Part shown: positions 1-25,992 of the stretch, one piece after another
How positions within the stretch are numbered: position 1 is the first letter of the stretch
How the letters are laid out: every line of letters starts with the position of its first letter
Notes under the pieces: generated by a model
What the model saw: only the letters and a program-made list of their open reading frames with translations
Told to the model about the DNA's origin: nothing
Databases searched by the model: none
Made by a program: the position numbers and the translations under genes
IMG/VR virus record: IMGVR_UViG_3300025736_000003
Length of the DNA: 25,992 nucleotides
Origin: a virus
Reading direction: 5' to 3' (one strand)

Positions 1-127
1 TGTGTATAACCCTATATCCTTCCTTCTCAGCATACTTTTTACAATATTCCTTCTGCTGTGCTATATTTTGTTGCTCGTCGTCTGTAGAGATTCTAGTGTA
101 TATTATTGCTTCCTTAACCATAAATTA
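1..127. repeat. Terminal overlap identical to 25866-25992 (circular-assembly signature); contains the first 121 nt of the recombinase gene
   Basis: Base-by-base comparison of the first and last 127 nt shows 100% identity. Minus-strand translation of 121..1 gives MVKEAIIYTRISTDDEQQ..., the same N-terminus as the CDS at 25489..25986. Confidence 0.9.
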
Positions 128-683: not shown

Positions 684-902
684 CTAATCAGATTGCGAAT
701 ATAGTTTATTTATGAATGCTTCTAAATCATCAGCATAAATTAAATTTCCACCCTTATATTCTACAAATTCATTTCTTTGTATCCAGCTAAGGATTTTATC
801 TTTTGTTAATCTATCCATTCGTCTTAGGTTTGGACTGCAACTTCTTAAACCACCTTTAGATTTCTTCCATGGCGGATCTATCATTAAAATATCATATTTC
901 AT
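684..902 (-). CDS. Small DPPW-motif protein (72 aa), possibly a fragment or accessory subunit of an amino-methyltransferase
   Basis: IDPPW at residues 8-12 resembles motif IV of N6-adenine/N4-cytosine methyltransferases. Its start overlaps the stop of the upstream gene in an ATGA arrangement. It is too short to be a complete methyltransferase. Confidence 0.4.
   Translation of the reverse strand: MKYDILMIDPPWKKSKGGLRSCSPNLRRMDRLTKDKILSWIQRNEFVEYKGGNLIYADDLEAFINKLYSQSD
734..832. repeat. 99-bp perfect direct repeat, copy 2 (inside the 72-aa DPPW ORF)
   Basis: Identical to 119-217; encodes roughly residues 24-56 of the ORF at 684..902. Confidence 0.9.
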
Positions 903-1549
903 TCTTGCGACCCCTTCTTTAGATTAAGCGTCGAAAATATTTCATGGAATAATGCTGGAGGTATTATTGACCTTTCTTTATTTCCTTTTAACCCCTGTGT
1001 TCCTGTCTTGCTTCCTCTCGGTGCTGCTTCGTGATGGCAATGTTTAGCTCGTCCTTTTAGGAAGTTATGACATGTCTTTGGTTCCCATCCTGGTAAGTTA
1101 GTCCATATGTCTGTAGGTTTTGCTCTTGTGTCTCCGTATTGGCAATACCATGCGGTTTTTCTGCAATCAGTCGGTAAGAACCATCTAGCTCTTGCTCTTG
1201 GGTTTTCTATGAAGAATATTTTATTGTTCTTGTTGCAAAATCTCGCAATCATCAAACAAAAGTCCAATAACTCCTTACCTAGTCTTGCAGCATCCGTTTT
1301 CGGAGATCGATCTGCGTTCCAATGAGTATTCCCCGCAGCCATACTGAAAGTAGTACATGGTGGAGACATCCAAACAACATCAGCCTCTCTTATTTTATTC
1401 CAAATCTCTTCAGTTAATCCATTGTTTAAGTCTACTGTTACATCACAATTAAACTTTGGATTATTGTCTACTGTGAATGTTTCGCATCCAAGTTCCTTAG
1501 CAACCTTACTAAAACTACCTGTTCCTGCGAATAGTTCTACGGTCTTCAT
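899..1549 (-). CDS. AdoMet-dependent DNA methyltransferase-like protein (C5-cytosine type motifs), 216 aa, unusually short
   Basis: ELFAGTGSF (motif I, FxGxG) at residues 5-13, SPPCTTFSMAAG (PC catalytic motif) at 62-73, FFIENP (ENV-like motif VI) at about 111-117, and a GN....IPP motif-X-like C-terminus. AGGAGA lies 7 nt upstream of the ATG. Confidence 0.6.
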   Translation of the reverse strand: MKTVELFAGTGSFSKVAKELGCETFTVDNNPKFNCDVTVDLNNGLTEEIWNKIREADVVWMSPPCTTFSMAAGNTHWNADRSPKTDAARLGKELLDFCLMIARFCNKNNKIFFIENPRARARWFLPTDCRKTAWYCQYGDTRAKPTDIWTNLPGWEPKTCHNFLKGRAKHCHHEAAPRGSKTGTQGLKGNKERSIIPPALFHEIFSTLNLKKGSQE

Positions 1550-7779: not shown

Positions 7780-7919
7780 TGCATTCCAACACCCGAAGGT
7801 GTGATATAATCAATTAACTATCCTTTATAATATTTTACCAGAACTACATAATAGTAACACAATAAAAAAATCCAACAACAACTATATAAAGAATGAGAAC
7901 CTTTTAATTCTCTACTTCT

Positions 7920-8276
7920 TTATTTGATGGCCGCAATATATAAAGCATTCAACTTAGTCTCGTTAAAACTTCTCTTAGTCTTCCCATTAATAACTTTCTC
8001 TTTAAAATCCCTACCCGTCCAATCTCTAGCATTAGTTACTTCCTTATCACAAAGTTTAGCTACCTCATATTCAAAATCATCGTCGATATTCATATCGGGT
8101 TCATCTAAATATAATTGCATACTTTTCCCACCACAATCAAAAGTTACTACTCCTTCATGTCTTGTATTTGTATCAACTGGTTTTGGGGTAAAAGTTGCTT
8201 TATCTAAAAGGGTTACTCCAGCAACGGCTACACCAATCATCATTATTGCCATCAAAACAATTATTTGTTTTTTCAT
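7920..8276 (-). CDS. Secreted protein (118 aa)
   Basis: N-terminal MKKQIIVLMAIMMIGVAVAG signal-peptide-like segment. Confidence 0.5.
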   Translation of the reverse strand: MKKQIIVLMAIMMIGVAVAGVTLLDKATFTPKPVDTNTRHEGVVTFDCGGKSMQLYLDEPDMNIDDDFEYEVAKLCDKEVTNARDWTGRDFKEKVINGKTKRSFNETKLNALYIAAIK

Positions 8277-8277
8277 T

Positions 8278-10089
8278 TTAATTTACCTCCCTAATATATT
8301 TATAAACCCAAACTCCGTTACAAATAGAATCATCCAATCCTAATCTTGAACTCCCACTCATATATCTTACAACACCTTTAGCAGTATTATTAAATATAAA
8401 GTTTTCCATTGTCCATTCAACTCCTTCGTTTTGACAAGCCGCCTCAAAATAAACCGTTTCTGCCTGATTTGTTTCACAATAATTTCCACTCCAATTCATT
8501 TCGCTATATTGAAAATTTGGAATGGCTGAAAAACAAGTCCCACCAGTATTATTCAAATAAACATTATTGAATCTTACAATATGATTTGGGTCTGCATAGT
8601 TTCTCCAAAATTGTTTTATTCCATAGCTATTTGTATTTAGCATTGTAACATTATTACCCTCGACAATAGTGTTTTCACTTCTAGGAAATATTGCTATTCC
8701 AGTCGTTCCAGTATTAATCCCATAAATTGTATTGTTAATAACTGAGGTATCTTTATTTGAATTAGTCGAGCCTGTCCCTTGAATCTGTATCCCACTTCGT
8801 CCATTATAAGAAATGTAGATAGTATTATTTATTATATCATTTCTATTTGAAATAAGGGCGGCTCCAAAAACTATTGGATTTCTGTTTCCTGTTGTGTTAA
8901 TCCAATTATCTCTTATAATATTATCATTGTGAGTTCCAGTATTAAAATGTATAATACCATCTTGAATTTTGTTATTTTTAACTATATTATTACTTGCCCC
9001 GTTGTAGATACTTATAGAGTTAGCAATTCCGAAAAAGTTATTTTTTTCTATCAGATTATTATTATTATTTGTATGAAAACTTATTCCATTTGAAATACCC
9101 GTCAAGGTGTTATTAATATAATTATTATAAGAACAGCTTGAATAACATTCTATATTATCAGTCCCCCCCGTGAAGGTTGTTACATTATTTCCAGTAATAT
9201 TTGTATGAATTACACCAACCATATAAATTCCGTTTTGGGTAGTTCCACCGTTGGCAGAAGTAACATTATTATTATTTATGTTTTCATAATCCCCTCTTAA
9301 ATAAACGGGATAATTATTGTTTCCAGTATTTCCAGCCTTAACATTACAATTTTGCAAAGTATTTCTATCAGAACCATACGCCATATAAACTCCATATCTT
9401 GAACTTGAATAAGTTGTTCCGTAAGTTATATCATATCCATCGCAATCAAGAATTATATTGTCTCCAGTAAAAGTCATACAAGTTCCTGTCGATGAAACAC
9501 TTACGTTCAATTTATAATTTTGGTTGCTTGTTGCGAAAGTAGAACAGGCTGTCACATTTGTATAAGCTAAATTCATTCCGTCTAAAGTTTGCTTAAATTT
9601 TAGAGTTAAAGTTTTCTTATCTTTGCTCAAATCCCAAGAGCAATTTATCAAACACTCTTTATCAAAATCGAAGATTTGTCTGAATTCATTCCATTCATCC
9701 TTAGGATTCTTTTTATAAGTATATGCGGATAGCGTCTTAAAATCAGGATTAATTTCTTCAAGCAAAATTATATCCGAATCACTTTTTAAAGTATAAATGA
9801 AATCTTTTAATGAATCACTTTTTGTTGTTGGTTTAATAATATATTTTCCTTTCTCTTCTATAAAATCTAAATCATAAGATTTTGAAGATAAAAAGGTATC
9901 TTCTTTAAGTTCTATGTTCGCACTATTCCAATCGGTATCAAAAACTATTTTATTGCTATCCTTACTAATTAATGTTATACTAGAAGATATATCTTCTCCA
10001 ATATTTGAATCTAAATCACTTCCAAAGATTAAAGGTAGAATACCAATTAACAATATTAGAATAGAAAAATATATAATTTGTTTTTTCAT
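8278..10089 (-). CDS. Secreted right-handed parallel beta-helix repeat protein (603 aa), receptor-binding/adhesin- or depolymerase-like
   Basis: Signal peptide MKKQIIYFSILILLIGILPLIFG. Many about 22-aa repeats of the form NNxI.G.N.....GI (NNIVKNNKI, NIIRDNWI, NDIINNTIYIS, SVINNTIYG, NTIVEGNNVT), typical of pectate-lyase-fold beta-helices. Dense NxS/T sequons. Confidence 0.65.
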   Translation of the reverse strand: MKKQIIYFSILILLIGILPLIFGSDLDSNIGEDISSSITLISKDSNKIVFDTDWNSANIELKEDTFLSSKSYDLDFIEEKGKYIIKPTTKSDSLKDFIYTLKSDSDIILLEEINPDFKTLSAYTYKKNPKDEWNEFRQIFDFDKECLINCSWDLSKDKKTLTLKFKQTLDGMNLAYTNVTACSTFATSNQNYKLNVSVSSTGTCMTFTGDNIILDCDGYDITYGTTYSSSRYGVYMAYGSDRNTLQNCNVKAGNTGNNNYPVYLRGDYENINNNNVTSANGGTTQNGIYMVGVIHTNITGNNVTTFTGGTDNIECYSSCSYNNYINNTLTGISNGISFHTNNNNNLIEKNNFFGIANSISIYNGASNNIVKNNKIQDGIIHFNTGTHNDNIIRDNWINTTGNRNPIVFGAALISNRNDIINNTIYISYNGRSGIQIQGTGSTNSNKDTSVINNTIYGINTGTTGIAIFPRSENTIVEGNNVTMLNTNSYGIKQFWRNYADPNHIVRFNNVYLNNTGGTCFSAIPNFQYSEMNWSGNYCETNQAETVYFEAACQNEGVEWTMENFIFNNTAKGVVRYMSGSSRLGLDDSICNGVWVYKYIREVN

Positions 10090-14888: not shown

Positions 14889-15427
14889 ACATTAAACCTC
14901 CCTTCAGGGCTTCCGGTAAAAAATATTATACCAGCTATAAATGCAATTATTGTCATTATAACAGGGCTATAAATAATTAAATAAGATACAAGTGAAGCAT
15001 CCCTGAGGTTTATACCCAACTCATCTTGCCCAACATAAAACTCTTCATAGAATTGGCTAACCGCTATGCACGTTATTATTAATAATAATACTGAGAATAC
15101 AAATAAAGCTATAACCCAACCATTATGATTATCTCTCATCACAAAAGATAGCGATAGTAATCCAACAATACCAACAATATAAATCAAACCCATAATCAAA
15201 CCAATATTATTTATTATAGAACCAATAGGGGTTAATACTGTTTCTGTATATTCGCTTACATTTATTCCAGGTGCAACTTCTCCTATATCATTAAACGCAG
15301 GGAATATTTCATCAGTTGTGGTTTTAATAACACCCCATCCAATAGTTGCCCCAGCCACAAGTAATACTAGGAATATTAATCCACCAATCAATAATGCTAT
15401 AGCCCATATTTGTCCTTTGTTATTCAT
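14885..15427 (-). CDS. Polytopic membrane protein (180 aa, about 4 TM)
   Basis: Four hydrophobic helix-length stretches; ATGA-coupled to neighbours. Confidence 0.55.
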   Translation of the reverse strand: MNNKGQIWAIALLIGGLIFLVLLVAGATIGWGVIKTTTDEIFPAFNDIGEVAPGINVSEYTETVLTPIGSIINNIGLIMGLIYIVGIVGLLSLSFVMRDNHNGWVIALFVFSVLLLIITCIAVSQFYEEFYVGQDELGINLRDASLVSYLIIYSPVIMTIIAFIAGIIFFTGSPEGRFNV

Positions 15428-15630
15428 TTGTGTTTCTCCGGTAAGTTAGTTAATTCTTCTAGCAACTTTCTATAACTTGGACATCTAGTTGCCAAGTTTG
15501 ATATTTTAGGCATTGTCATTTCCCTGGGCGAACACCTACTCAGCTTCTTTTCCATTCTTGTAGCACCAGCTTTAAATAAGTCTGTAAACAGTGTTTCATC
15601 CATTCTAGCAGTCCTACTCTTTGATTTCAT
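15424..15630 (-). CDS. Small basic protein (68 aa)
   Basis: ORF coupled by 4-nt overlaps on both sides; Arg/Lys-rich. Confidence 0.35.
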   Translation of the reverse strand: MKSKSRTARMDETLFTDLFKAGATRMEKKLSRCSPREMTMPKISNLATRCPSYRKLLEELTNLPEKHK

Positions 15631-16349
15631 TTGAACTCAACACCCCTTTCAATTAACCCAAGCATCTCTTTGCTTAAAACAATCCTTTGAATCATTGCAA
15701 TAATACAGAGAGGGATAATTATAAGATTAGATAACATCATAATAGTAAATATTCCAAATAAGAAACTACCTAACAAACCTGTATCTAAATATGCTATTGC
15801 AATATTAGATGCTATAAAAACTATTGATGTTAATAGAATCCAGACAGACCCCTTCACAACTGGCCTGATATATGCTAATTTTGAAACTTCTAATACAAAT
15901 CCTTGATCGTCACGAGCATCAGTTGGTAAAACGTTTAGAAACATAAATAGTAATCCCATAATAAATATTAAGAAAATAATTAAACCCAAATAAAGAATCG
16001 CAGTTTGGGGCGTAAGAGTATGACCATTATAAGTAACTGGAACGGTATTACATCCGGTATCTTTTTCTACACTATTTCCACAACTATAACAATAAGTAAG
16101 GGTATCTTTTTCTGTTAAATTGCCACCTTCAATTAAGAATGAATAATGAGTCCCATCTTGAGTAGCCTCTATGTTTGAAAATAATAATTCTCCACCATAG
16201 GTAACCCTTGTAAAATTACAACCTGTACAATTATTACATTCTTGATAAATTTCATAATCATCTCCTATTTGTGTAGGTGTTAATTCGACAGCCCCTACAA
16301 AAGTAAAAGCAAACATTAAAAATAATAATAATATTACTTTTTTCCCCAT
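15627..16349 (-). CDS. Membrane protein with Cys-rich ectodomain (about 240 aa)
   Basis: I placed the start at the ATG at 16349 (MGKKVILLLFLMFAFTFVGA, signal-like) because AGGAGG lies 9 nt upstream. A CNNCTGCN...CYSCG...GCN cluster is followed by several TM helices. Confidence 0.5.
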   Translation of the reverse strand: MGKKVILLLFLMFAFTFVGAVELTPTQIGDDYEIYQECNNCTGCNFTRVTYGGELLFSNIEATQDGTHYSFLIEGGNLTEKDTLTYCYSCGNSVEKDTGCNTVPVTYNGHTLTPQTAILYLGLIIFLIFIMGLLFMFLNVLPTDARDDQGFVLEVSKLAYIRPVVKGSVWILLTSIVFIASNIAIAYLDTGLLGSFLFGIFTIMMLSNLIIIPLCIIAMIQRIVLSKEMLGLIERGVEFK

Positions 16350-17133: not shown

Positions 17134-20100
17134 TTACTTCTTTTTCTTTGTCGATTTAGTTTTCTTCTTCGGTGCTTTTCTTTTTGCTGCTTGGATTTCT
17201 ATAGTTTCTGTTTTCTTACTCAATCTCTTACTTCTTCGTTCAATAAATAATTTTCCTAAAGGTGTGTCTTTCTCTCTAAACCCTTTTGGTGCTTTTGGAG
17301 TTTTGCCAGGTGAACTTAATCTAAATGTTGCAGCTAAAGTTTTTGAGGTTACTCTTTTACCAAATTCGAATGCTTGTCGCTGTGTTCTAAAACTTCCAAC
17401 ATTAAAGAACTCTCCACCTCTACGAATTTGAACACCGAAGCCAACTCTTGGTGTTTTTGTGCTTGGTGTTTTTGGAATAATTGGAGGGAATATTATGTTT
17501 ATCTTTCCTATTATTTTGGGTGGTCTTGGTTGTGGTGGTTGAGGAAATCCACCAAATCCAATTATATTAGGTTGTGCAAATTGTTGCCTTTGGAGTTGTC
17601 GCTGTAATTGTTTCTGATTTAATTTTTGATCTTGTCTCTGAATAACTCTACTTATTACTTTCTCTACAGGTTGTTGAAATTGTTTAGACACTAAACGAGA
17701 ATCAGCCCTAGAACTTATCTTCTTTAATTGAGCAACCTTTACACCAAGTATAGAATTTATATCAAGATTAAATGATTGTGATAACTTAGGCTGAATTATT
17801 TGTATAGGAACATCTGTAACTGATACTTCTTGTTTTCCATTTAATAAAGAAGCTATACCTAACCCACCCAACCCTAAACTATCACGAGTACCGCTAATTT
17901 CTAATCCAGGAATAAATGGAGCAGCCCCACCAGATACAGAAGGTACTTTTAATATTTCTTCTGTTGGTTGTACAAATGTAGTTCTTGGTAAATTCAATTC
18001 CTCTCCAAATGCAAACTTAGATGGAACAGGGATTTGTTCTTGAATTTGTTTTGTTGGTTTTGTCTTACTAAAGAAGTCTGTTATTTGTCCCTTCCTAGCT
18101 GCTATCTTTGATTCCTGTGAACTTGTCAAAGATTTAACAACGTCATCAAACTGTTCCCTTGCTAAAGCCCTATCAATAACATCTACTTTTAACTTCCTAG
18201 CTTTTACAACTTTAGAACCAGCTTTTTGTAATGCCTTTAATTCTTTAGATGCAGGATTAATAAATAGGGTTGTAGTTCTCTGACCTGAAAATGCAGTTAT
18301 ATCTCTTTGTATGTTTGGCGTTATTACTTTTGTTAATAGTTTTTGTTTACCCACTTGTCCGAAAAGTGTTTGGTCGAATGTTTTATCAACTCCAAATTCT
18401 ATTTCTTGTGCAATCCTTCTTCTTATTTGAATATTACCCTTAGATCCAACTCTCTTTATTAATCCCTTTCTTTCACTAACTTGAATAATATCCAAGAAAG
18501 ATTTCTCTTTTTGTATGGTTTGTTTTATTCCTTTAGATATATCTCTACCAACTAATGTTGTTGATTCAAATTCTCCAGTAACAAGTTTTGATCTAAGAGA
18601 TACAGGCTTATCTGATAATATTAAATCTCCAACGTCGTCTGTAAGTTTACTACTCTTCTTAACCTTATCACCACTCTTAACAATTAATTCATTAAATGTT
18701 ACACCTGGTTGTCCGAACTGTTTATCAATCTTTAATTTATCTACTTTTGATTTTAAAAATTTTAATTCTGGCAAATCTCCTTTATTCAAACTTTGCTCAA
18801 AAATAGATTTCCCCTTCTTAAATAATTTAACAGTTCCTTTACCACCTTTAGTTACTTCAGTAATTTTAGTTATATCGCCAAACTTAATTGTTTCTTTTAG
18901 AACTCCATCACCTGCGACCTCCGCAAACCCTTCAAACTTTTGTAGTTTCTTACCAATCTTTCTCAACTCAATAACCTTACCGGTTTGCCTAGCTTCAGGT
19001 ATAAATTGTGTTTCTAATATTCTACCTTTTGTTTTAGAACTAACTATGGATTTAGATAGATCATCCACTTTGGAAATCTCTAATCTTGGTTTAGTTATTT
19101 TTAATTTAGAAGTTTCTTTAGCAATCCTTGTTTCTAATATTAATGCTTTTCTTTCTGGGATAGATACAAATTCTTGTAACTTCTTTACCCTACCTGCCTT
19201 AATAGCCTTAACTATACCTCTAGAACCAACCCCTATAGCAAGTCCAACCTCTAATGGATTTTCAACTGCAAAATCAAAGAACGATTCTGGTCCACCAAAA
19301 GCACCCTTACCAACTTGTGCCTCTAATCCTTTAGCAGCAACCTCACCAACGAATGCTCCAGGCAAAGTAAAACCTAATAGTTCAGTACCAACACGAACAG
19401 CCTTACCACCAAACTCTGCCCTTTTTTCAAACCCAGCTTTCTTTTCTATCCCAGGTATATCTGATTTTAATATATCAGTAAATGATTGTTCAACCTCTCC
19501 TAAGAAAATCTCTTTACCAAATCCAATCAAACCTTCACCTTGAAATTTAGATATTGGAACATCTCTAATCTGACCTGGTAATCCTAACCTAACAGTTGGT
19601 CCACCGCCTAACTGGAATGTAGTAGTGTCTCCTTCTTTAACTTCTGTAACAGTTCCTCCACCTGCTTTAAACTGTGACAACTTTAATGAGAAATCTTCCT
19701 GACTTAATCCTTCTTGTAATACTGCTTCTGTTAATGAACTAAACTCTTTTAATTGTCTATCAATTATTCTCTTAGCTTCTGCTATTTGTCCTATTGGAGT
19801 ATCTCCTAGTGATGGTAATGTTTCTCTTAATGGTACGACAACCTTTTCTCTAAAAGCACCAACACCTGACTCAACACCACTAATGATTGGCTGAACACCA
19901 AACTCACTTATTGGAGTTATAAACTCTTTCTCAACTGCCCTAAATACTTTTGATTCACTAAGTGGTATTACAACTTCTTTTTCAAATGTCTTTGCAATAT
20001 CTTTAGATGCCAACCCAACTTCACCAGCGACAATCTTTCCACCAAAACTTAAGGGAGATAAATTTTGTAACTTACTAACTTCAACATCTCTAATCTGTCC

Positions 20101-20787
20101 AGGTAATCCAAACCTGATAGTTTCTCCTGGTTGTTTAGATTCTATGATTTCTTTTGCTTTCCTTAAATCCTGTGCAACAATACCTATTGGAGTTTCTCCA
20201 AGTGATGGGAGTTTCTCTCTTAATGGAACAACTAATTTTTCTCTGAATGTAGAGACACCCTTCTTAACTACTTGAGTAACATCTACTTGTTTTGGTTTTC
20301 CTGTTTTAATTCTAGCAACCTTACTAACAACTTTCTCAACCACACCTTTTTCCGGTGCAGCTTTTACCTCACCAGTAGTACCTGATTCTGCTCTGGCGGT
20401 TTTACCGGCCTGTGAAACCTCAGCTCTTTCTCTCGCTAAAATAATATTTCTTGAAGATGATTCTGAAGATAAAATTCCTGACTGTTTATTTTGTCTTTGT
20501 AGTTCTTCTATCCTCTGTTGTCTAACTGTAACAAGTTCAGCTCTTTTTTGGTTCTCAGCCTGTACCCTCACAGCTTCTTGTTGTTGTCGTGATGCTTGGC
20601 TTTGCCTATCTAAAGCTTCTTGGGAAATAGATTGTCTTCCCCTAGAACTCCTACCTCTACTTGAGCTACTACCACTTGAAATACCTGATTCTTTTACTGG
20701 GCCTTTATAATTTGGTGCAATTATCTTTAACTTTTTTGCAGCATCTTCTCTACTTTTTTTTAATGTTCTTTCAAACTGACTAGCCAT
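17134..20787 (-). CDS. Giant charged protein with long internal repeats (1217 aa), putative virion/structural or scaffold protein
   Basis: Internal protein repeats FREKLVVPLREKLPSLGETPIG / FREKVVVPLRETLPSLGDTPIG and RFGLPGQIRDVEVSKLQ / RLGLPGQIRDVPISKFQ, mirrored at DNA level (about 20090-20230 versus 19560-19860). Lys/Gln/Glu-rich, no TM segment. Confidence 0.6.
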   Translation of the reverse strand: MASQFERTLKKSREDAAKKLKIIAPNYKGPVKESGISSGSSSSRGRSSRGRQSISQEALDRQSQASRQQQEAVRVQAENQKRAELVTVRQQRIEELQRQNKQSGILSSESSSRNIILARERAEVSQAGKTARAESGTTGEVKAAPEKGVVEKVVSKVARIKTGKPKQVDVTQVVKKGVSTFREKLVVPLREKLPSLGETPIGIVAQDLRKAKEIIESKQPGETIRFGLPGQIRDVEVSKLQNLSPLSFGGKIVAGEVGLASKDIAKTFEKEVVIPLSESKVFRAVEKEFITPISEFGVQPIISGVESGVGAFREKVVVPLRETLPSLGDTPIGQIAEAKRIIDRQLKEFSSLTEAVLQEGLSQEDFSLKLSQFKAGGGTVTEVKEGDTTTFQLGGGPTVRLGLPGQIRDVPISKFQGEGLIGFGKEIFLGEVEQSFTDILKSDIPGIEKKAGFEKRAEFGGKAVRVGTELLGFTLPGAFVGEVAAKGLEAQVGKGAFGGPESFFDFAVENPLEVGLAIGVGSRGIVKAIKAGRVKKLQEFVSIPERKALILETRIAKETSKLKITKPRLEISKVDDLSKSIVSSKTKGRILETQFIPEARQTGKVIELRKIGKKLQKFEGFAEVAGDGVLKETIKFGDITKITEVTKGGKGTVKLFKKGKSIFEQSLNKGDLPELKFLKSKVDKLKIDKQFGQPGVTFNELIVKSGDKVKKSSKLTDDVGDLILSDKPVSLRSKLVTGEFESTTLVGRDISKGIKQTIQKEKSFLDIIQVSERKGLIKRVGSKGNIQIRRRIAQEIEFGVDKTFDQTLFGQVGKQKLLTKVITPNIQRDITAFSGQRTTTLFINPASKELKALQKAGSKVVKARKLKVDVIDRALAREQFDDVVKSLTSSQESKIAARKGQITDFFSKTKPTKQIQEQIPVPSKFAFGEELNLPRTTFVQPTEEILKVPSVSGGAAPFIPGLEISGTRDSLGLGGLGIASLLNGKQEVSVTDVPIQIIQPKLSQSFNLDINSILGVKVAQLKKISSRADSRLVSKQFQQPVEKVISRVIQRQDQKLNQKQLQRQLQRQQFAQPNIIGFGGFPQPPQPRPPKIIGKINIIFPPIIPKTPSTKTPRVGFGVQIRRGGEFFNVGSFRTQRQAFEFGKRVTSKTLAATFRLSSPGKTPKAPKGFREKDTPLGKLFIERRSKRLSKKTETIEIQAAKRKAPKKKTKSTKKKK

Positions 20788-21137
20788 CAATAAACTCTAA
20801 CTAAAAATGTTTTCCCATAATCTTTCGTAACCCACGTTCTGGATTCTATTAAAGAATAAATGTTATCACCATCTTTTAATTTAATTCCTGTATCAATATC
20901 ATTTTTTTGTGGTTGTCTTGAAAAAGTATTTGGTGCTAATCCTAACTTAATCAAACCCACATAATTATTATTATCACCAATATCAATCTTTATATTATCA
21001 AAATCAACAACATCTTTATTATGCTCAACAGCACCATAGATTCCTACAAAAGAACCAATTAATAATACAGATAAGATAGCCGCCACCGAGTATAAAACTT
21101 TAGGGTTGTTTAATAATTGTTTTACTTCTTTATCCAT
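20787..21137 (-). CDS. Small membrane-anchored protein (about 116 aa)
   Basis: I placed the start at the ATG at 21137 (MDKEVKQLLNNPKVLYSVAAILSVLLIGSFVGIYGA, with an N-terminal TM or signal anchor). The track start at 21158 is a GTG lying inside the upstream repeats. Confidence 0.45.
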   Translation of the reverse strand: MDKEVKQLLNNPKVLYSVAAILSVLLIGSFVGIYGAVEHNKDVVDFDNIKIDIGDNNNYVGLIKLGLAPNTFSRQPQKNDIDTGIKLKDGDNIYSLIESRTWVTKDYGKTFLVRVY

Positions 21138-21139
21138 TT

Positions 21140-21175
21140 GCGTTACAGCGTTACGCACTTGCGTTACAGCGTTAC
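21140..21175. promoter_or_regulatory. Four GCGTTAC heptamers (two 15-bp direct repeats) immediately upstream of the ATG at 21137: candidate operator
   Basis: gcgttacagcgttac at 21140-21154 and again at 21161-21175, lying between a TATA-like AT box and the start codon. Confidence 0.45.
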
Positions 21176-21350: not shown

Positions 21351-21406
21351 ATCTTAATTAGCAAAGCAAAGTTTAAATACTTACTTACTTACTAATTAAT
21401 GTAAAG

Positions 21407-21859
21407 ATGGCGATGGATGATAATAAAGAAACTACATTTAATGAAGCAGTTTTGAAGATGCAAAGGATTCATATTCTACAACAAGAAATTAATCTACTTA
21501 GAATTAATCTACTTGCATGGAATCTTGAATATAGTAAATATAACTATGATGTTGTAATATCTGATTTAATAAGTTTATGTTATGAGGTTAGGCCTCTTAT
21601 GAAAATAGAGGAAAGAAATGAATTTAGTTTGCTTAAGGAGTTAGTTGATGATTTAATATCATACAAACCTATATTTAAAAAAATTAATACTTCTAATTTC
21701 TCAGGTAAAAATAATAATGAAAGTATCGACACTAATAATTGGAATATGTTAAGGGGTGTTATATTTAAATTTGAGGACTTTGCTAGGGATCAAGTTGATA
21801 TACATGGGCTGTCTGCTCCAAAGAAAAAGGATGCCTCTAGGGCTGCGGTTGATCTATAA
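21407..21859 (+). CDS. Hypothetical protein (150 aa)
   Basis: First gene of the plus-strand block; its stop overlaps the next start (TAATG). Confidence 0.5.
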   Translation: MAMDDNKETTFNEAVLKMQRIHILQQEINLLRINLLAWNLEYSKYNYDVVISDLISLCYEVRPLMKIEERNEFSLLKELVDDLISYKPIFKKINTSNFSGKNNNESIDTNNWNMLRGVIFKFEDFARDQVDIHGLSAPKKKDASRAAVDL

Positions 21860-22872
21860 TGAAATTCTTAGAAAAAGAGTTCCCAAAGGGTTCGTTCCCA
21901 AAACAACAAACAGATGGTGCATATATAAATCAAACATTAGCAGATAACTTAAATGTATATGCTAAACAGATTGTAAAAGATATGCACTTCTTAATAATTA
22001 TATCAGGTAACGACGCTGTTGGAAATGGTAAATCTACTTTGGCAACACATGTTGGTGCATACTTAACTAATAAAATAAATGAATTACATGGTATAAATAA
22101 TACCTTCACTTCTAGCAATGTTGCACTAAGGGCGAAAGATTTAGTTAAGCAAAGTTTTGATAACCCACAATACTCAGTTAATGTTTTAGATGAGGGTGAC
22201 GATTTAACAACTCATGGTATGAAGCAATCTGCAGTTGAGCTTAAGAGATACTTCCGTAAATGTAGGCAACTAAATCAAATCTTAATATTAATATTACCAT
22301 CCTTCTTTGAACTCCCAAAATTCTATGCATTAGCAAGAAGCCATTCTTTAATTAATGTTAAATTTCATGGAGAGTTTGAGCGTGGTTCATTCGATTTCTA
22401 TGGACCAAAGAGTAAAAAGAAATTATATTTGAAAGGAAAAAGAGAGTGGGATTATGACGCTGCATCTCCAGACTTCTATGGATCTTTCTTCTCTACTTAT
22501 ACCTTCTTCCCTGGCTTGAATGATGAGATTGCTGCTTATAAAAAGAAGAAGTATACTGATATGATTGATGATGCTGATGAGGATCACACACAACTATCAC
22601 CTATACAAGTAGAACGAATGTTAAAGGCTAAATTGTTTAAGCAGGTGTATAATAATATCCCCAATATTACTATACCCATATTGTCTAATGCGTTTGGCGT
22701 ATCAAGTAGGACTGGTGATAGATATTTATCCAACGAATATGACGAAAAAATAAAAATCCTAAAACACGAAATCGACGCCCCGCCGACTAATACTAATAAT
22801 ACCATAAGGGATTTGGATGATGTGGTGAGTCCAGAGAAGCATCCAGGGGTTATAGTAAGGACTATTAGTTAG
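21859..22872 (+). CDS. P-loop NTPase with C-terminal HTH-like segment (337 aa), AAA+/DnaA- or IstB-like architecture
   Basis: Walker A GNDAVGNGKST around residues 51-61, Walker B VNVLDEGDD around 108-116, and a C-terminal ITIPILSNAFGVSSRTGDRYLS helix-turn-helix-like segment. Confidence 0.6.
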   Translation: MKFLEKEFPKGSFPKQQTDGAYINQTLADNLNVYAKQIVKDMHFLIIISGNDAVGNGKSTLATHVGAYLTNKINELHGINNTFTSSNVALRAKDLVKQSFDNPQYSVNVLDEGDDLTTHGMKQSAVELKRYFRKCRQLNQILILILPSFFELPKFYALARSHSLINVKFHGEFERGSFDFYGPKSKKKLYLKGKREWDYDAASPDFYGSFFSTYTFFPGLNDEIAAYKKKKYTDMIDDADEDHTQLSPIQVERMLKAKLFKQVYNNIPNITIPILSNAFGVSSRTGDRYLSNEYDEKIKILKHEIDAPPTNTNNTIRDLDDVVSPEKHPGVIVRTIS

Positions 22873-22989
22873 TAGTTAAACCCAATCAAATAAAGATAGT
22901 TACATTGTAACACAGTGAACGCACCTTTATAATAAAACTTTCTTATATAGTATTATGTTTATAACTAAATTCTCAAAGGAGGTTTTAAA

Positions 22990-23304
22990 ATGAGAAACAA
23001 TAAGAAAGGACAGAGTGCTAATATTGGTGCAATGATAGGAGGTATTATAGGTTTGATATTTCTAGTTGTTGTAGGATTTGTATCTTTAGATATTTTGACT
23101 GGTGCTGGATTGCTAACAAGTGATTCTGCATTTGATAATGCTACAGATAGATTAGTTGGTAATCTGACGGCTGGTGTAGACAAGGTATCTGTAAAGATTC
23201 CAATAATGTTTACTATCACTGTAGCTGTTCTATTACTTGGATTGATTGTATTCCTTGTCATCAGGGCAAGACAAGCACAGCAAGTTCAAGGCGGAACTAT
23301 TTAA
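22990..23304 (+). CDS. Small hydrophobic two-helix protein (104 aa), candidate major virion/membrane structural protein
   Basis: Canonical AGGAGG 8 nt upstream of the ATG, preceded by TATA-like boxes. Two hydrophobic segments (IGAMIGGIIGLIFLVVVGFV and IMFTITVAVLLLGLIVFLVI). Confidence 0.5.
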   Translation: MRNNKKGQSANIGAMIGGIIGLIFLVVVGFVSLDILTGAGLLTSDSAFDNATDRLVGNLTAGVDKVSVKIPIMFTITVAVLLLGLIVFLVIRARQAQQVQGGTI

Positions 23305-23329
23305 ATTTAGAAATAAATTTAAGCTACAT

Positions 23330-23417
23330 TTGAGATGACAGATCCTGCTGGGGTAAACTCACGAGCATCCGGCGGCATCTCAAAAAGTGCGGGGGAAACC
23401 AAACTGGCATCCGCACT
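23330..23417 (+). other. GC-rich island with two stable hairpins (possible structured RNA or terminator-like element)
   Basis: ttgagatg (23330-23337) pairs with catctcaa (23376-23383), and agtgcgg (23386-23392) pairs with ccgcact (23411-23417). Local GC is far above the surrounding sequence; no U-tract follows. Confidence 0.35.
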
Positions 23418-23462
23418 ATAATCCAATTAAAGAATTAAATTACAATGGAGGAAAAATAAAAT

Positions 23463-23693
23463 ATGGAAAAATCATTATCACAACTAAGAGCAGAGGTAGA
23501 TACTTTGCGTAGAAAGAAAGCGGAAAAAGAGTCTCTAGTTAAATTATCTAATAAGAGAGATATAGAAAAAAGAAAATTAAAGTCTGAATTATCTAATTTA
23601 AAAAGTCCTAAGAGGAAGGCAGCTTTAGGATTTACTAGAGCATTCTTTAGTGAAGCTGGGAAACTTATAGCACCTAATAAAAAAAGAAGATAA
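23463..23693 (+). CDS. Basic coiled-coil protein (76 aa)
   Basis: GGAGG about 13 nt upstream; Lys/Arg/Glu-rich heptad-like sequence. Confidence 0.45.
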   Translation: MEKSLSQLRAEVDTLRRKKAEKESLVKLSNKRDIEKRKLKSELSNLKSPKRKAALGFTRAFFSEAGKLIAPNKKRR

Positions 23694-23766
23694 AAAAATT
23701 CATTTTTAAGATATTTACTTTTTAGATTTAATAGAATCAATTAAGATTTTATTTAAATCCTCAAGC

Positions 23767-24105
23767 CTAGTATCTATGGTTGAGTTCAGTTGGGCTATTA
23801 GATTCTGTAGTGTCATTATCGACTCCACTAGCTCCGCCCTGAAGTAACTCTCGTTTTGCATTGATAACAGCGTTTTGTAAGTCTGGTTTTCTTTCAGTAT
23901 GTTTTCCACTTTCTCTGAATCCCACTCCGTTTGGTTTCCACTCACTTTGGTTAGCTGCTTCTCCTTTTCGTCCTGGATCATCTTCTTCTTTATACCTCCT
24001 TTTCATTCTTCTTATTTTTATATCTTCTATAATTTTAAGTGTGAACCAAACTAGAACACACCAGATAACAAGTCCAATAAATAATTCTATCCACATCTTA
24101 AGCAC
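23767..24105 (-). CDS. Hypothetical protein with N-terminal TM helix (112 aa)
   Basis: ORF with N-terminal hydrophobic segment WIELFIGLVIWCVLVWF. It overlaps an alternative-frame ORF (23715..23981), so the true frame is uncertain. Confidence 0.35.
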   Translation of the reverse strand: MLKMWIELFIGLVIWCVLVWFTLKIIEDIKIRRMKRRYKEEDDPGRKGEAANQSEWKPNGVGFRESGKHTERKPDLQNAVINAKRELLQGGASGVDNDTTESNSPTELNHRY

Positions 24106-24796
24106 TAACTAATCCAGTCCCTCCTGAACAAATAGAATCAACATGACCCAGTGCTCTCATAATAGGTTCTTGTGCTTCTGCAAGTGCCCTTGCAGCTTCA
24201 GATAATTCTCCTCCAATAACTCCTATTTGTTCTAACATAAACCATATACCTGCAAACAAAATTATTAAAACAAAACCTCCCATTATCCAAGAACCATACC
24301 TATCCATAAAAGTTATCTTAGGGCCATAATTTTCTGCAGCATTTTTTCTCATAGCGACGCTAACATATTTTATGTCCCTATCAACCATTTCAATATCTAA
24401 CGTACCCATTTTTGCATCTAAATCTCCCAAAACAATATTATACCACCCACCATCTTGGCCAATAGCAAACCAATATTTATTTGATCCCATCTTTTTACCG
24501 TAGGCAGTTAGTGGCATCTTCTTTTTTCTAAGCCAAAAAACCTCAGTACCATCTTTACTTAATCTTAAATATTTTGCAGTATCGTTCATGGTGTTTTGCC
24601 AACCCTGCCCAGAGATATTTTCAAACACAGCTATATTAAATTTGTATAATTTCTTATTAAAATACCACCAAATAATTGCGGCCGCTATTCCAAGCATTAC
24701 AATAACAGCGAAGCCAACCATAAGATAAATACCCCATGCCGAATTAGCCATACTCGGTAAATCTATCCCGGTTTCCATTCCTGCAACTGTCCCCAT
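24098..24796 (-). CDS. Membrane protein (232 aa, 2 TM)
   Basis: Hydrophobic helices near residues 20-45 and 175-195; GGAAGG about 12 nt upstream. Confidence 0.55.
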   Translation of the reverse strand: MGTVAGMETGIDLPSMANSAWGIYLMVGFAVIVMLGIAAAIIWWYFNKKLYKFNIAVFENISGQGWQNTMNDTAKYLRLSKDGTEVFWLRKKKMPLTAYGKKMGSNKYWFAIGQDGGWYNIVLGDLDAKMGTLDIEMVDRDIKYVSVAMRKNAAENYGPKITFMDRYGSWIMGGFVLIILFAGIWFMLEQIGVIGGELSEAARALAEAQEPIMRALGHVDSICSGGTGLVSA

Positions 24797-25488: not shown

Positions 25489-25986
25489 CTAAATCTTCTT
25501 ATTTCTTCCAACCGCACCTTTCTTCCGGCCCTTATATTTCCCTTCAGCTTTTGCCCTAGCTATACCAACTGCTCTCTTTATATTAAGATTATCAATATAA
25601 AAAGCATTCATAGCCATTTTAATTCTAAAAGTGAACTTCCCCATAGGATTAACTAAATCAACCATCTCAGATAAAGATTTAATAATAATATTATTTTTAA
25701 TAACAAAACGTTCAAACCAAACGCTATCATAAAAATCTCTGCAAATCCTATCAACATCCTGAACAATTAAATGTACTGTTGGGTTCTCCTCTAAAAACTT
25801 TAACATCCTTTTACCGCCGCTTCGTTCACAAACATTTATCTTACCACTAATCTTATCTCCAATGGTGTGTATAACCCTATATCCTTCCTTCTCAGCATAC
25901 TTTTTACAATATTCCTTCTGCTGTGCTATATTTTGTTGCTCGTCGTCTGTAGAGATTCTAGTGTATATTATTGCTTCCTTAACCAT
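25489..25986 (-). CDS. Small serine recombinase (resolvase/invertase catalytic domain), 165 aa, no obvious C-terminal HTH
   Basis: N-terminal YTRISTDDEQ motif with Arg10/Ser12 arranged as in resolvase/invertase active sites, and a DRICRD motif around residue 80. The protein stops at ...KGRKKGAVGRNKKI, where the HTH domain of typical resolvases would start. Confidence 0.75.
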   Translation of the reverse strand: MVKEAIIYTRISTDDEQQNIAQQKEYCKKYAEKEGYRVIHTIGDKISGKINVCERSGGKRMLKFLEENPTVHLIVQDVDRICRDFYDSVWFERFVIKNNIIIKSLSEMVDLVNPMGKFTFRIKMAMNAFYIDNLNIKRAVGIARAKAEGKYKGRKKGAVGRNKKI

Positions 25987-25992
25987 AAATTA
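25866..25992. repeat. Terminal overlap, second copy (identical to 1-127)
   Basis: Identical 127-mer at both window ends, implying a unit length of 25,865 bp. Confidence 0.9.

What the first reader, a model, noticed from the sequence alone, without database searches (positions are those of the whole stretch)
21859..23304. Walker ATPase plus strongly expressed two-helix hydrophobic protein as a possible virion core
The only plus-strand block pairs an ATPase (Walker A/B plus a C-terminal HTH-like segment) with a 104-aa protein that has two hydrophobic helices and the best RBS and promoter context in the window. Small two-helix major capsid proteins and an AAA+/DnaA-like ATPase are core genes of spindle-shaped archaeal viruses; membrane proteins plus a conserved NTPase also characterise pleomorphic viruses.
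Basis: inference. Interest (0 to 1): 0.6.

Follow-up and report, generated by a model that had tools for sequence, protein, structure and literature searches.

The report
Spindle-virus-type ATPase plus putative capsid protein
The window is a complete 25.9-kb circular genome, probably of a virus of tiny DPANN archaea, and its plus-strand block pairs an ATPase clearly related to those of spindle-shaped archaeal viruses with a small, unannotated two-helix membrane protein that is probably the capsid protein.

Summary
Genes 21407-23693 form the only plus-strand block. It holds a 150-aa protein, a 337-aa P-loop ATPase with a C-terminal HTH, a 104-aa two-helix protein and a 76-aa protein.

The ATPase is a distant but clear relative of the spindle-shaped-virus ATPase family (His1 ORF16 and SSV1 B251, phrog_5484). 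hhalign against His1 ORF16 gives 97% probability, E 2.5e-11, over 237 columns including the HTH. It shows no similarity to pleolipovirus VP8, and no IstB family was among its Pfam matches.

The 104-aa protein belongs to a large unannotated family. Shared features are a [KR]G motif before helix 1, a loop enriched in N-glycosylation sequons, a Gly-rich C-terminus and tandem paralogues next to the ATPase in relatives. It has no detectable sequence or fold match to known capsid proteins. In one distant relative (a DPANN provirus), a true SSV1 VP1 homologue lies beside the same ATPase cassette.

The closest genome matches are Woesearchaeota MAGs, one carrying an integrated copy. Promoters look archaeal.

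Verdict: a spindle-virus-type morphogenetic module with a new capsid-like protein family. The capsid role is inferred, not shown.

The parts
21372..21379 (+). TATA-like box TTTAAATA, 35 nt upstream of the 150-aa gene, which has no SD. This is the pattern of an archaeal promoter for a leaderless or short-leader transcript.
   Evidence: The same TTTAAATA/TTTATATA at -29 to -36 precedes other SD-less candidate ORFs (p46, p46b, p57). Sequence read.
21407..21859 (+). 150-aa partner protein of the ATPase. Its stop overlaps the ATPase start (ATGA). Function unknown.
   Evidence: A 120-152-aa homologue directly precedes the ATPase in 17 related loci. Shared motifs are FNxA..R[LI]H at the N-terminus and DPRxAxL at the C-terminus. 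No Pfam family, and not similar to His1 ORF18.
21859..22872 (+). 337-aa ASCE/AAA+-like P-loop ATPase with a C-terminal HTH. Member of the spindle-shaped-virus ATPase superfamily (His1 ORF16 / SSV1 B251, phrog_5484).
22006..22038 (+). Walker A (aa 50-60, GNDAVGNGKST).
   Evidence: G57 and K58 are invariant across the wide family.
22177..22203 (+). Walker B (aa 107-115, VNVLDEGDD).
   Evidence: D111 and E112 are invariant.
22672..22767 (+). C-terminal helix-turn-helix region (aa about 272-303).
   Evidence: AlphaFold2 helices H272-278, H283-290 and H294-303. The region aligns with the annotated HTH of His1 ORF16.
22926..22933 (+). TATA-like TTTATAAT, 64 nt upstream of the 104-aa gene. Possibly the gene's own promoter.
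   Evidence: sequence. It coincides with the single 10-of-12 sigma-70-like match, which is not above chance for the region.
22975..22983 (+). Shine-Dalgarno AAAGGAGGT of the 104-aa gene.
   Evidence: Duplex energy -11.2 kcal/mol with the anti-SD, tied among the top five of 44 genes.
22990..23304 (+). 104-aa two-helix membrane protein, the putative major capsid protein. Features: KKG motif (aa 5-7), TM1 about 8-44, loop with sequons N50-A-T and N58-L-T, TM2 about 65-97, then RAR and a Gly-rich end.
   Evidence: Tandem paralogues lie next to the ATPase in L032; L031 has three tandem copies on a short contig with no ATPase. No match to known families.
23330..23416 (+). Two GC-rich hairpins directly downstream of the 104-aa gene: 23330-23383 and 23387-23416.
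   Evidence: RNA fold z = -3.1. Hairpin 1 is conserved in L006 and L008 with compensatory stem changes. No Rfam hit. Found only in these relatives in IMG/VR.
23463..23693 (+). 76-aa basic coiled-coil protein, last gene of the plus-strand block.
   Evidence: By tblastn it was found only in the near-identical contigs L003-L005.
24098..24796 (-). 232-aa protein with N- and C-terminal hydrophobic segments. A conserved convergent neighbour of the block.
   Evidence: 68-71% identical in L006-L008 and detectable in L001, L002 and L009.

Best explanation
The block is the morphogenetic module of a circular 25.9-kb dsDNA virus of the spindle-shaped-virus type. The host is most likely a DPANN archaeon of the Woesearchaeota/Pacearchaeota group.

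The 104-aa protein is proposed to be the major capsid protein. In this model it inserts into the host membrane as an alpha-helical hairpin. Its N-terminus is trimmed at the conserved [KR]G site. Its exposed loop is N-glycosylated at the conserved sequons. It then polymerises into the capsid lattice.

The ATPase is a relative of His1 ORF16 and SSV1 B251. It is proposed to bind viral DNA through its C-terminal HTH and to use ATP hydrolysis in replication initiation and/or in delivering the genome to the assembling particle. The always-adjacent 150-aa protein would act as its cofactor.

Shown: homology of the ATPase, the architecture and conservation of both proteins, and the gene linkage. Inferred: presence in virions, processing, glycosylation, particle shape and the ATPase's actual step.
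For: ATPase family membership.
- hhalign against His1 ORF16: 97.3% probability, E 2.5e-11, collinear from Walker A to the HTH.
- Eight of 18 family members hit phrog_5484, which contains SSV1 B251 and His1 ORF16.
- The literature defines the spindle-virus signature module as a hydrophobic alpha-helical MCP plus an AAA+ ATPase. It includes 21-22-kb DPANN (Nanohaloarchaeota) viruses with two paralogous MCPs (bioRxiv 10.1101/2025.02.15.638363).

Linkage.
- The order p150, ATPase, 104-aa is kept in L007 and L008, and ATPase then 104-aa in L006, whose contig begins inside the ATPase gene.
- L032 has p150, ATPase, then two tandem 104-aa paralogues. L031 has three tandem paralogues.
- In the DPANN chromosome CP070794.1 (L025), a 30%-identical ATPase cassette sits beside a true SSV1 VP1 homologue. 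That match is 47% identity over 53 aa, E 4e-12. It fixes the expected position of the MCP gene.

Protein features.
- Two long helices, mean pLDDT 82.
- 284 representative relatives.
- The near-invariant positions in the broad alignment are K5, G7, N58 and G62.
- Loop sequons number 1223 observed against 457 expected. A [KR]G precedes TM1 in 229 of 268 sequences.
- The KKGQSANIG stretch aligns with the SSV1 VP1 maturation site TKG|EATNIG (my recollection of the mature N-terminus).
- The SD is strong.

No alternative capsid.
- No Pfam capsid, portal or terminase family among the 28 ORFs scanned, and no significant PHROG match in the ten large or membrane proteins scanned.

Host.
- The closest GTDB hits are Woesearchaeota MAGs.
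- L013 is an integrated copy beside host genes on a 150-kb contig.
- TATA boxes are of the archaeal type.
Against: No sequence or structure link was found between the 104-aa family and any known capsid protein.
- hhalign against SSV1 VP1/VP3, His1 VP21, the NYMAG-47 MCP, the L025 MCP and a four-sequence MCP profile gave probabilities of 0.4-45%.
- The AlphaFold2 pTM is 0.35, so the packing of the two helices into a hairpin is not established.
- The loop and the C-terminal tail are longer than in known MCPs.

No virion, expression or host-infection data exist. Host assignment rests on MAG binning and one integrated copy. The function of this ATPase family has not been established experimentally, as far as I know.
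Confidence: 0.6

Rival explanations
1. The element is a virus or MGE with the spindle-type ATPase, but the 104-aa protein is not the capsid protein. It would be another membrane protein. Candidates are a pilin-like surface protein made through a class III signal peptide, a virion envelope or minor protein, or a protein that remodels the host surface or excludes superinfection.
For: A [KR]G motif directly before a hydrophobic helix is also the hallmark of archaeal prepilin (class III) signal peptides (my knowledge). The motif is present in 229 of 268 sequences. The long paralogues carry an insert of roughly 80-100 aa that is rich in glycosylation sequons, as surface proteins do. There is no homology to known MCPs. 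The window also encodes other small multi-TM proteins, p107 and p143.
Against: The second, C-terminal TM helix followed by a basic cluster is not pilin-like. The gene holds the MCP position next to the ATPase cassette. Tandem paralogy resembles VP1/VP3 and the DNSV and wyrdvirus MCP pairs. No other capsid candidate was found.
Confidence: 0.25
2. The element is an integrative plasmid that makes no virions. The ATPase and its 150-aa partner would serve only as replication initiator or partition system, and the 104-aa protein would be cargo.
For: phrog_5484 is annotated 'DnaA-like replication initiation protein'. In L013 the cassette follows the integrase and the D5-like helicase. Related ATPases occur on haloarchaeal plasmids and satellites. 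The element encodes a recombinase and a primase-helicase.
Against: About 13 kb of the genome encodes large secreted or adhesin-like proteins. These are a 1218-aa protein, an 837-aa protein with a ConA-like lectin domain, a 603-aa protein with a weak, sub-threshold beta-helix match, and a 509-aa protein. That is typical of virion or receptor-binding modules. Relatives are present in IMG/VR. Linkage of the 2-TM family with the ATPase is conserved.
Confidence: 0.1
3. The block belongs to a pleomorphic (pleolipovirus-like) or filamentous (inovirus-like) virus. The 104-aa protein would be a membrane or coat protein and the ATPase an NTPase of the VP8 or pI/Zot type.
Against: hhalign against HRPV-1 VP8 and VP3 gives probabilities of 0.2% and 0.1%. 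The p8 hit is not significant. Zot scores no better than dozens of generic ASCE ATPases. My KD scan reported no full-frame ORF with two hydrophobic segments at the ATPase locus, but the ATPase itself was not scanned (the scan was limited to shorter ORFs). The genome is 25.9 kb and carries a D5/SF3 primase-helicase.
Confidence: 0.04
4. One reading: the ATPase is an IS21 IstB-type transposition helper, or the 104-aa protein is a holin.
For: None specific. Both are generic possibilities for a P-loop ATPase and a small 2-TM protein.
Against: No IstB family is among the ATPase's Pfam matches, and the only PHROG hits are phrog_38691 and, weakly, a thymidylate kinase family and phrog_5484. No transposase was found among the ORFs scanned. 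No holin family was hit at E<=0.1 by any of the 44 family members. The conserved N-glycosylation sequons and tandem paralogues are not holin features, and no endolysin was found.
Confidence: 0.01

Closest known systems
His1 virus (Halspiviridae): ORF16 ATPase and VP21 capsid protein
   Same: The ATPase is homologous over its full length, from P-loop to C-terminal HTH, and is of similar size (308 against 337 aa). Both genomes carry a small protein with two hydrophobic helices whose loop holds an N-x-S/T sequon.
   Different: ATPase identity is only about 18-22%. VP21 (73 aa) has no significant similarity to the 104-aa family. His1 is linear, 14.5 kb, has a protein-primed PolB and infects a halophile. 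Here the genome is circular, 25.9 kb, with a D5-like primase-helicase and a serine recombinase.
SSV1 (Fuselloviridae): B251 ATPase and VP1/VP3
   Same: The ATPases share a PHROG family. Capsid genes can be paralogous, as in the tandem copies of L032 and L031. The window's KKGQSANIG resembles the VP1 maturation site TKG|EATNIG. Both have glycosylation sequons in the loop.
   Different: The direct profile match to B251 is weak (44%, P-loop only). The match to VP1 is not significant (31% and 3%). B251 aligned only over the P-loop region, with no counterpart of the HTH in the 251-aa protein.
DNSV-1 and DNSV-2, putative spindle-shaped viruses of Nanohaloarchaeota (bioRxiv 10.1101/2025.02.15.638363; later Nat Microbiol 2025)
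   Same: DPANN hosts, 21-22-kb genomes, a module of AAA+ ATPase plus two paralogous hairpin MCPs, a recombinase, and one giant gene.
   Different: Those come from hypersaline environments and carry a tyrosine integrase.
'Nipumfusiviridae' (NYMAG-47 and 10 UViGs; PMC10866085)
   Same: Marine origin, 27-38 kb. The proposed core includes an 89-aa two-helix MCP with an unusually long glycosylation-prone loop, plus an ATPase.
   Different: hhalign of both proteins against the NYMAG-47 proteins (translated from the paper's supplement) is not significant. The gene order differs. Their proposed host is Nitrosopumilaceae. None of the three UViG ids I could read from the paper's supplement appeared among my IMG/VR hits.
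A 6.5-kb provirus in DPANN chromosome CP070794.1 (L025)
   Same: It has the same p150-like plus ATPase cassette (30% identity), and its host is a DPANN archaeon.
   Different: It carries a classical VP1-type MCP of 73 aa instead of the 104-aa family, a tyrosine integrase, and a far smaller genome.

Membership tests
Spindle-shaped-virus AAA+ ATPase (SSV1 B251 / His1 ORF16; phrog_5484) | P-loop NTPase with Walker A and Walker B | tested here: met
   GNGKST and LDEGDD are present. G57, K58, D111 and E112 are invariant.
Spindle-shaped-virus AAA+ ATPase (SSV1 B251 / His1 ORF16; phrog_5484) | Significant profile similarity to family members | tested here: met
   hhalign of A3 against His1 ORF16: 97.3%, E 2.5e-11, 237 columns. 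Eight of 18 members hit phrog_5484, best E 1.4e-5. The window protein on its own reaches only E 0.075.
Spindle-shaped-virus AAA+ ATPase (SSV1 B251 / His1 ORF16; phrog_5484) | C-terminal HTH, as annotated in His1 ORF16 | tested here: met
   The alignment runs through the annotated HTH. AlphaFold2 places helices at 272-303.
Spindle-shaped-virus AAA+ ATPase (SSV1 B251 / His1 ORF16; phrog_5484) | Genomic linkage with a hydrophobic hairpin MCP gene | tested here: met
   In L025 the cassette is next to a true VP1 homologue. In the window, L006-L008 and L032 it is next to the 104-aa family.
Spindle-shaped-virus AAA+ ATPase (SSV1 B251 / His1 ORF16; phrog_5484) | ATPase activity and a role in replication or morphogenesis | not testable with these tools
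   Needs biochemistry and genetics.
Hairpin major capsid protein of spindle-shaped viruses (SSV1 VP1/VP3, His1 VP21; phrog_11172/5402) | Small protein made of two hydrophobic alpha-helices | tested here: met
   Hydrophobic segments at 8-44 and 65-97. AlphaFold2 helices at 5-38 and 47-101.
Hairpin major capsid protein of spindle-shaped viruses (SSV1 VP1/VP3, His1 VP21; phrog_11172/5402) | Detectable sequence or profile homology to VP1/VP21 | tested here: not met
   Profile against profile, A4 against A7: 3.5%. Single comparisons give 0.4-45%. No member hit phrog_11172 among the families listed, and only 1 of 44 hit phrog_5402, at E 0.03.
Hairpin major capsid protein of spindle-shaped viruses (SSV1 VP1/VP3, His1 VP21; phrog_11172/5402) | Fold match to solved MCP structures (SSV19, SMV1, APBV1) | tested here: inconclusive
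Hairpin major capsid protein of spindle-shaped viruses (SSV1 VP1/VP3, His1 VP21; phrog_11172/5402) | Glycosylated exposed loop between the helices | tested here: inconclusive
   Sequons are enriched 2.7-fold in the loops (1223 against 457), and N58-x-T is near-invariant. Actual glycosylation was not tested.
Hairpin major capsid protein of spindle-shaped viruses (SSV1 VP1/VP3, His1 VP21; phrog_11172/5402) | Major component of virions | not testable with these tools
   Needs particle purification and mass spectrometry.
Pleolipovirus core (VP3, VP4, VP8) | VP8-like NTPase and VP3-like membrane protein | tested here: not met
   hhalign against HRPV-1 VP8 gives 0.2% and against VP3 0.1%. A VP4-like spike was not searched for.
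IS21 IstB transposition helper | IstB ATPase domain next to an IstA transposase | tested here: not met
   No IstB family is among the ATPase's Pfam matches. No transposase family matched any of the 28 window ORFs scanned.
Holin | Match to a holin family, paired with an endolysin | tested here: not met
   No holin hit in Pfam or PHROGs for the protein or for 44 relatives. No lysin was found among the ORFs scanned.
Inovirus pI (Zot) and p8 coat module | Zot-family ATPase with a TM domain, plus a signal-peptide-bearing coat protein | tested here: not met
Archaeal type IV pilin (class III signal peptide) | [KR]G cleavage motif followed by one hydrophobic helix and a globular domain | tested here: inconclusive
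   The motif is present in 229 of 268 sequences. However, there is a second, C-terminal TM helix, and the short forms have no globular domain.

The most novel reading that the evidence does not exclude
This would be a widespread, so far unannotated lineage of non-icosahedral (probably spindle-shaped) viruses of aquatic Woesearchaeota/Pacearchaeota DPANN archaea. Its capsid would be built from a new two-helix protein family with no detectable relation to VP1/VP21. That family would be matured at a prepilin-like [KR]G site and N-glycosylated, and it would have long-loop paralogues that decorate the particle.
Probability: 0.35. Interest if true: 0.65.

Novelty: new variant of a known kind. Interest (0 to 1): 0.5.

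Why it matters
Viruses of non-halophilic DPANN archaea are barely characterised, and spindle-shaped viruses are hard to find in metagenomes because their capsid proteins escape sequence searches.

This block gives a usable handle. The handle is a conserved three-gene signature: a p150-like protein, a His1-ORF16-type ATPase, and a [KR]G/sequon-rich two-helix protein. It recovers hundreds of metagenomic homologues, on contigs up to about 25 kb, that public sources leave unnamed or misname as MnhC, ClcA or CadD.

If the 104-aa family is the capsid protein, it adds a new sequence family to the hairpin-MCP class. It also extends the spindle-virus ATPase module to another DPANN lineage.

Tried and rejected
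Searches and comparisons that gave nothing
- megablast of the window, and tblastn of the ATPase and the 104-aa protein, against the INPHARED phage collection: no match.
- Pfam for both proteins: nothing significant.
- PDB sequence search with profiles A1, A2 and A3: nothing significant. The best was inovirus p8 at E 0.37.
- tRNA and Rfam scans: none, or only chance hits.

Comparisons with named families
- 'Nipumfusiviridae': I took the NYMAG-47 genome from the paper's supplement and translated its MCP and ATPase. hhalign was not significant.
- Pleolipovirus VP8 and VP3: rejected.
- His1 ORF18 as a counterpart of the 150-aa partner: rejected.

Left unresolved
- phrog_16261 ('virion structural protein') is hit by 8 of 44 family members, best E 0.0011. 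I could not identify which viruses it comes from, so I give it no weight.
- I guessed an NSV1 accession (MK570053); it is not in the collection.
- Wu, Liu & Ni 2024 (Nat Microbiol, DPANN viruses and MGEs) is not held in the library. Overlap with their seven proposed families could not be checked.
Full report
**What is in the window**

The contig has a 127-bp terminal direct repeat: positions 1-127 equal 25866-25992. It is therefore a complete circular genome of 25,865 bp. GC content is about 31%.

Almost all genes lie on the minus strand. GC skew turns positive only between 21 and 24 kb. The sole plus-strand block lies there:
- a 150-aa ORF, 21407-21859;
- the 337-aa ATPase, 21859-22872, whose start overlaps the preceding stop (ATGA);
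- the 104-aa ORF, 22990-23304;
- a 76-aa basic coiled-coil ORF, 23463-23693.

The rest of the genome encodes:
- a D5-N/DUF5906 (SF3) primase-helicase;
- a 380-aa protein with a weak, sub-threshold zinc-ribbon match;
- a 165-aa serine recombinase;
- a short protein with a borderline, sub-threshold C5 methyltransferase match;
- several small multi-TM proteins;
- about 13 kb of large proteins without PHROG matches: 1218 aa, 837 aa with a ConA-like lectin domain, 603 aa with a weak, sub-threshold beta-helix match, and 509 aa.

No Pfam capsid, portal or terminase family was found among the 28 ORFs scanned. The ten large or membrane proteins scanned against PHROGs gave no significant match.

**Checking the observation**

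Walker A is GNDAVGNGKST and Walker B is VNVLDEGDD. G57, K58, D111 and E112 are invariant in a family alignment reaching down to 25% identity. The AlphaFold2 model (pLDDT 77.5) has C-terminal helices at 272-303.

The 104-aa protein has two hydrophobic segments, 8-44 and 65-97. It is modelled as two long helices with pLDDT 82.

'Best RBS' is an overstatement. AAAGGAGGT scores -11.2 kcal/mol and ties in the top five of 44 genes. Bacterial-type promoters are not above chance, with 12 found against 14.5 expected.

What stands out instead is an archaeal pattern. TTTAAATA or TTTATATA lies 29-36 nt upstream of SD-less ORFs, including the 150-aa gene. The 104-aa gene has a TTTATAAT at -64 plus an SD.

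**The ATPase**

On its own it matches no Pfam family. It weakly hits phrog_38691 (E 5.9e-5) and phrog_5484 (E 0.075). It has 188 metagenomic homologues.

A profile of 18 diverse members (A3) aligns with His1 ORF16 at 97.3% probability, E 2.5e-11, over 237 columns. The alignment runs from before Walker A to the annotated C-terminal HTH. Eight of the 18 members hit phrog_5484 directly. That PHROG contains both SSV1 B251 (E 5e-101) and His1 ORF16 (E 3e-62).

So the ATPase is a divergent member of the ATPase family that, with the hairpin MCP, is the recognised signature module of spindle-shaped archaeal viruses.

A 120-152-aa protein directly precedes the ATPase in 17 related loci. Its N-terminus carries FNxA..R[LI]H and its C-terminus carries DPRxAxL. 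It has no known family.

**The 104-aa protein**

It has 55 close homologues of 60-88% identity. A profile search of 1.84 billion representatives finds 284 relatives at E<=1e-3. These fall into two size classes. One is about 100-115 aa. The other is about 175-215 aa, with a sequon-rich insert in the loop.

In a 44-sequence alignment reaching down to 21% identity, the only near-invariant positions are K5, G7, N58 and G62. These correspond to a [KR]G motif just before helix 1 and an N-x-[ST] sequon in the loop.

Counts across 268 family members:
- the [KR]G motif is present in 229;
- a Gly-rich C-terminus ending in a hydrophobic residue is present in 237;
- loop sequons number 1223, against 457 expected from shuffles.

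Public sources give no name or wrong ones (MnhC, ClcA, CadD).

Tests against known capsid proteins were negative or uninformative:
- hhalign against SSV1 VP1: 31% with the narrow profile. That alignment places KKGQSANIG on the VP1 maturation site TKG|EATNIG. With the broad profile the figure is 3%.
- hhalign against His1 VP21: 2% and 45%, the latter covering TM2 only.
- hhalign against VP3: 0.4%.
- hhalign against the NYMAG-47 MCP: about 3%.
- hhalign against a four-sequence MCP profile: 3.5%.
- Foldseek against BFVD: nothing.

Membership in the VP1/VP21 family is therefore not demonstrated.

**Context that bears on function**

The order p150, ATPase, 104-aa, then the convergent p88/p112 and the 232-aa gene, is kept in L007 and L008. 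L006 begins inside the ATPase gene and keeps the rest of the order. In L008 the ATPase has been replaced by a 29%-identical version while the 104-aa protein stays at 70% identity.

L032 has p150, ATPase, then two tandem 104-aa paralogues. L031 has three tandem paralogues, two short and one long. More distant ATPase-bearing contigs (L009, L015, L023) carry divergent members of the same 2-TM family elsewhere on the contig. In L015 and L023 these come with further partial copies nearby.

The most telling case is L025, from the complete DPANN chromosome CP070794.1. A roughly 6.5-kb element there interrupts a RuBisCO large-subunit gene. It sits about 50 bp downstream of a tRNA-Thr/Ser/Pro cluster, and an archaeal EF-1alpha gene follows the downstream RuBisCO half. 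It holds a tyrosine integrase, a p150-like gene, an ATPase 30% identical to the window's, and a 73-aa protein divergently adjacent to that cassette. The 73-aa protein is a true SSV1 VP1 homologue. It shows 47% identity over 53 aa, E 4e-12, and also hits His1 VP21 at 3.7e-4.

So the place next to this ATPase cassette is where a hairpin MCP gene sits. In the window's lineage, the 104-aa family fills that place.

**Host**

A scan of GTDB species genomes with the ATPase profile gave 14 loci. Most are in DPANN MAGs (Woesearchaeota, Pacearchaeota). The two closest, at 54% and 68% identity, are both Woesearchaeota.

L013 is the end of a 150-kb Woesearchaeota contig. There, host genes (DapB, MscS, a methyltransferase) are followed by a tyrosine integrase, a D5-like helicase, a p150-like gene and the ATPase. 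That layout indicates an integrated relative.

A few hits lie in other bins (Thermoplasmatales, Methanosarcinales, Saccharibacteria, Dehalococcoidales). These are short contigs and may be mis-binned.

**Interpretation**

The best-supported reading is a spindle-virus-type morphogenetic module in a virus of Woesearchaeota-like DPANN archaea. The ATPase part is shown by homology. The capsid role of the 104-aa protein is inferred from six lines:
- its position next to the ATPase cassette;
- its two-helix architecture;
- selection for loop sequons;
- the conserved N-terminal motif;
- tandem paralogy;
- a strong SD and the absence of any other capsid candidate.

How the ATPase acts is not known for any member of this family, as far as I know. 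Candidates are replication initiation, as the 'DnaA-like' label suggests, or genome delivery during assembly. I favour a DNA-bound, HTH-mediated role coupled to assembly, with low confidence in the specific step.

Rivals, in decreasing order of likelihood:
- a non-capsid surface or pilin-like protein;
- a non-encapsidated integrative plasmid;
- pleolipovirus-like or inovirus-like modules, tested and not supported;
- IstB or holin, tested and not met.

**Novelty and score**

The kind is known: a hairpin MCP plus an AAA+ ATPase, including DPANN examples from Nanohaloarchaeota and marine 'Nipumfusiviridae'. The ATPase here is a new distant branch. The 2-TM family is unannotated and not detectably related to known MCPs. 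I therefore rate it a new variant of a known kind, with interest about 0.5.

Caveat: Wu et al. 2024 (DPANN viruses and MGEs) could not be read. It may already include this lineage.

Noticed in passing
window 1-127 and 25866-25992: An exact 127-bp terminal direct repeat. The contig is a complete circular genome of 25,865 bp, and the serine recombinase gene spans the junction region.
   Followed up: yes
window 23330-23416: Two GC-rich hairpins lie right after the 104-aa gene (fold z = -3.1). Hairpin 1 is conserved in L006 and L008, with compensatory stem changes and a nearly identical loop core GGGGKAAACTYRCGAGCATCC. It is absent from L007, has no Rfam match, and occurs in only those two IMG/VR contigs. 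It could be a 3'-UTR or terminator element, a small RNA, or a DNA site.
   Followed up: partly
window 21140-21154 and 21161-21175: Two exact copies of GCGTTACAGCGTTAC, 21 nt apart (0 expected by chance). They overlap the start of the minus-strand 123-aa gene, in the region between the divergent gene blocks. They may be a regulator or origin site, and a possible target of the ATPase HTH.
   Followed up: partly
window 23715-24105 (minus strand): Two overlapping ORFs in different frames, p88 and p112, both show amino-acid conservation in relatives. p88 reaches 66% identity in L008 and p112 reaches 37%. p112 has an N-terminal TM helix. This could be overlapping genes or a frameshift.
   Followed up: no
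L025 7919-15817 (CP070794.1, DPANN chromosome): A roughly 6.5-kb fusellovirus-like provirus splits a RuBisCO large-subunit gene into an N-terminal part (7919-8596) and a C-terminal part (15137-15817). It carries a VP1-type MCP, the p150-like plus ATPase cassette, a tyrosine integrase and a 290-aa secreted protein. It lies just downstream of a tRNA-Thr/Ser/Pro cluster.
   Followed up: partly
L013 5391-10654 (CAZLHJ010000001.1, Woesearchaeota, 150-kb contig): An integrated relative sits at the contig end. Host DapB, MscS and methyltransferase genes are followed by a tyrosine integrase, a D5-like helicase, a p150-like gene and an ATPase 68% identical to the window's.
   Followed up: partly
L008 5380-6252 compared with window 21859-22872: Module swapping. 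The ATPase is only 29% identical to the window's, while the flanking 104-aa (70%), 232-aa (68%) and 265-aa (72%) genes are close homologues.
   Followed up: no
L031 612-1806; proteins P0190, P0196, P0201, P0209, P0241: Long paralogues of the 104-aa family (about 175-215 aa) carry an insert of roughly 80-100 aa in the loop, full of N-x-S/T sequons. In L031 two short copies and one long copy are tandem.
   Followed up: partly
window 17134-20790 (minus strand): The 1218-aa protein has internal repeats (two copies of a GLPGQIRDV-containing segment), a Ser/Arg- and Gln-rich N-terminal region and a very basic C-terminus ending KKKTKSTKKKK. It has no Pfam or PHROG match.
   Followed up: no
window 25489-25986 and 899-1549 (minus strand): The serine recombinase is only 165 aa, a catalytic domain with no recognisable DNA-binding domain. 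The C5 cytosine methyltransferase match is short (216 aa, below the Pfam cut-off). Relatives use either a serine or a tyrosine recombinase.
   Followed up: no
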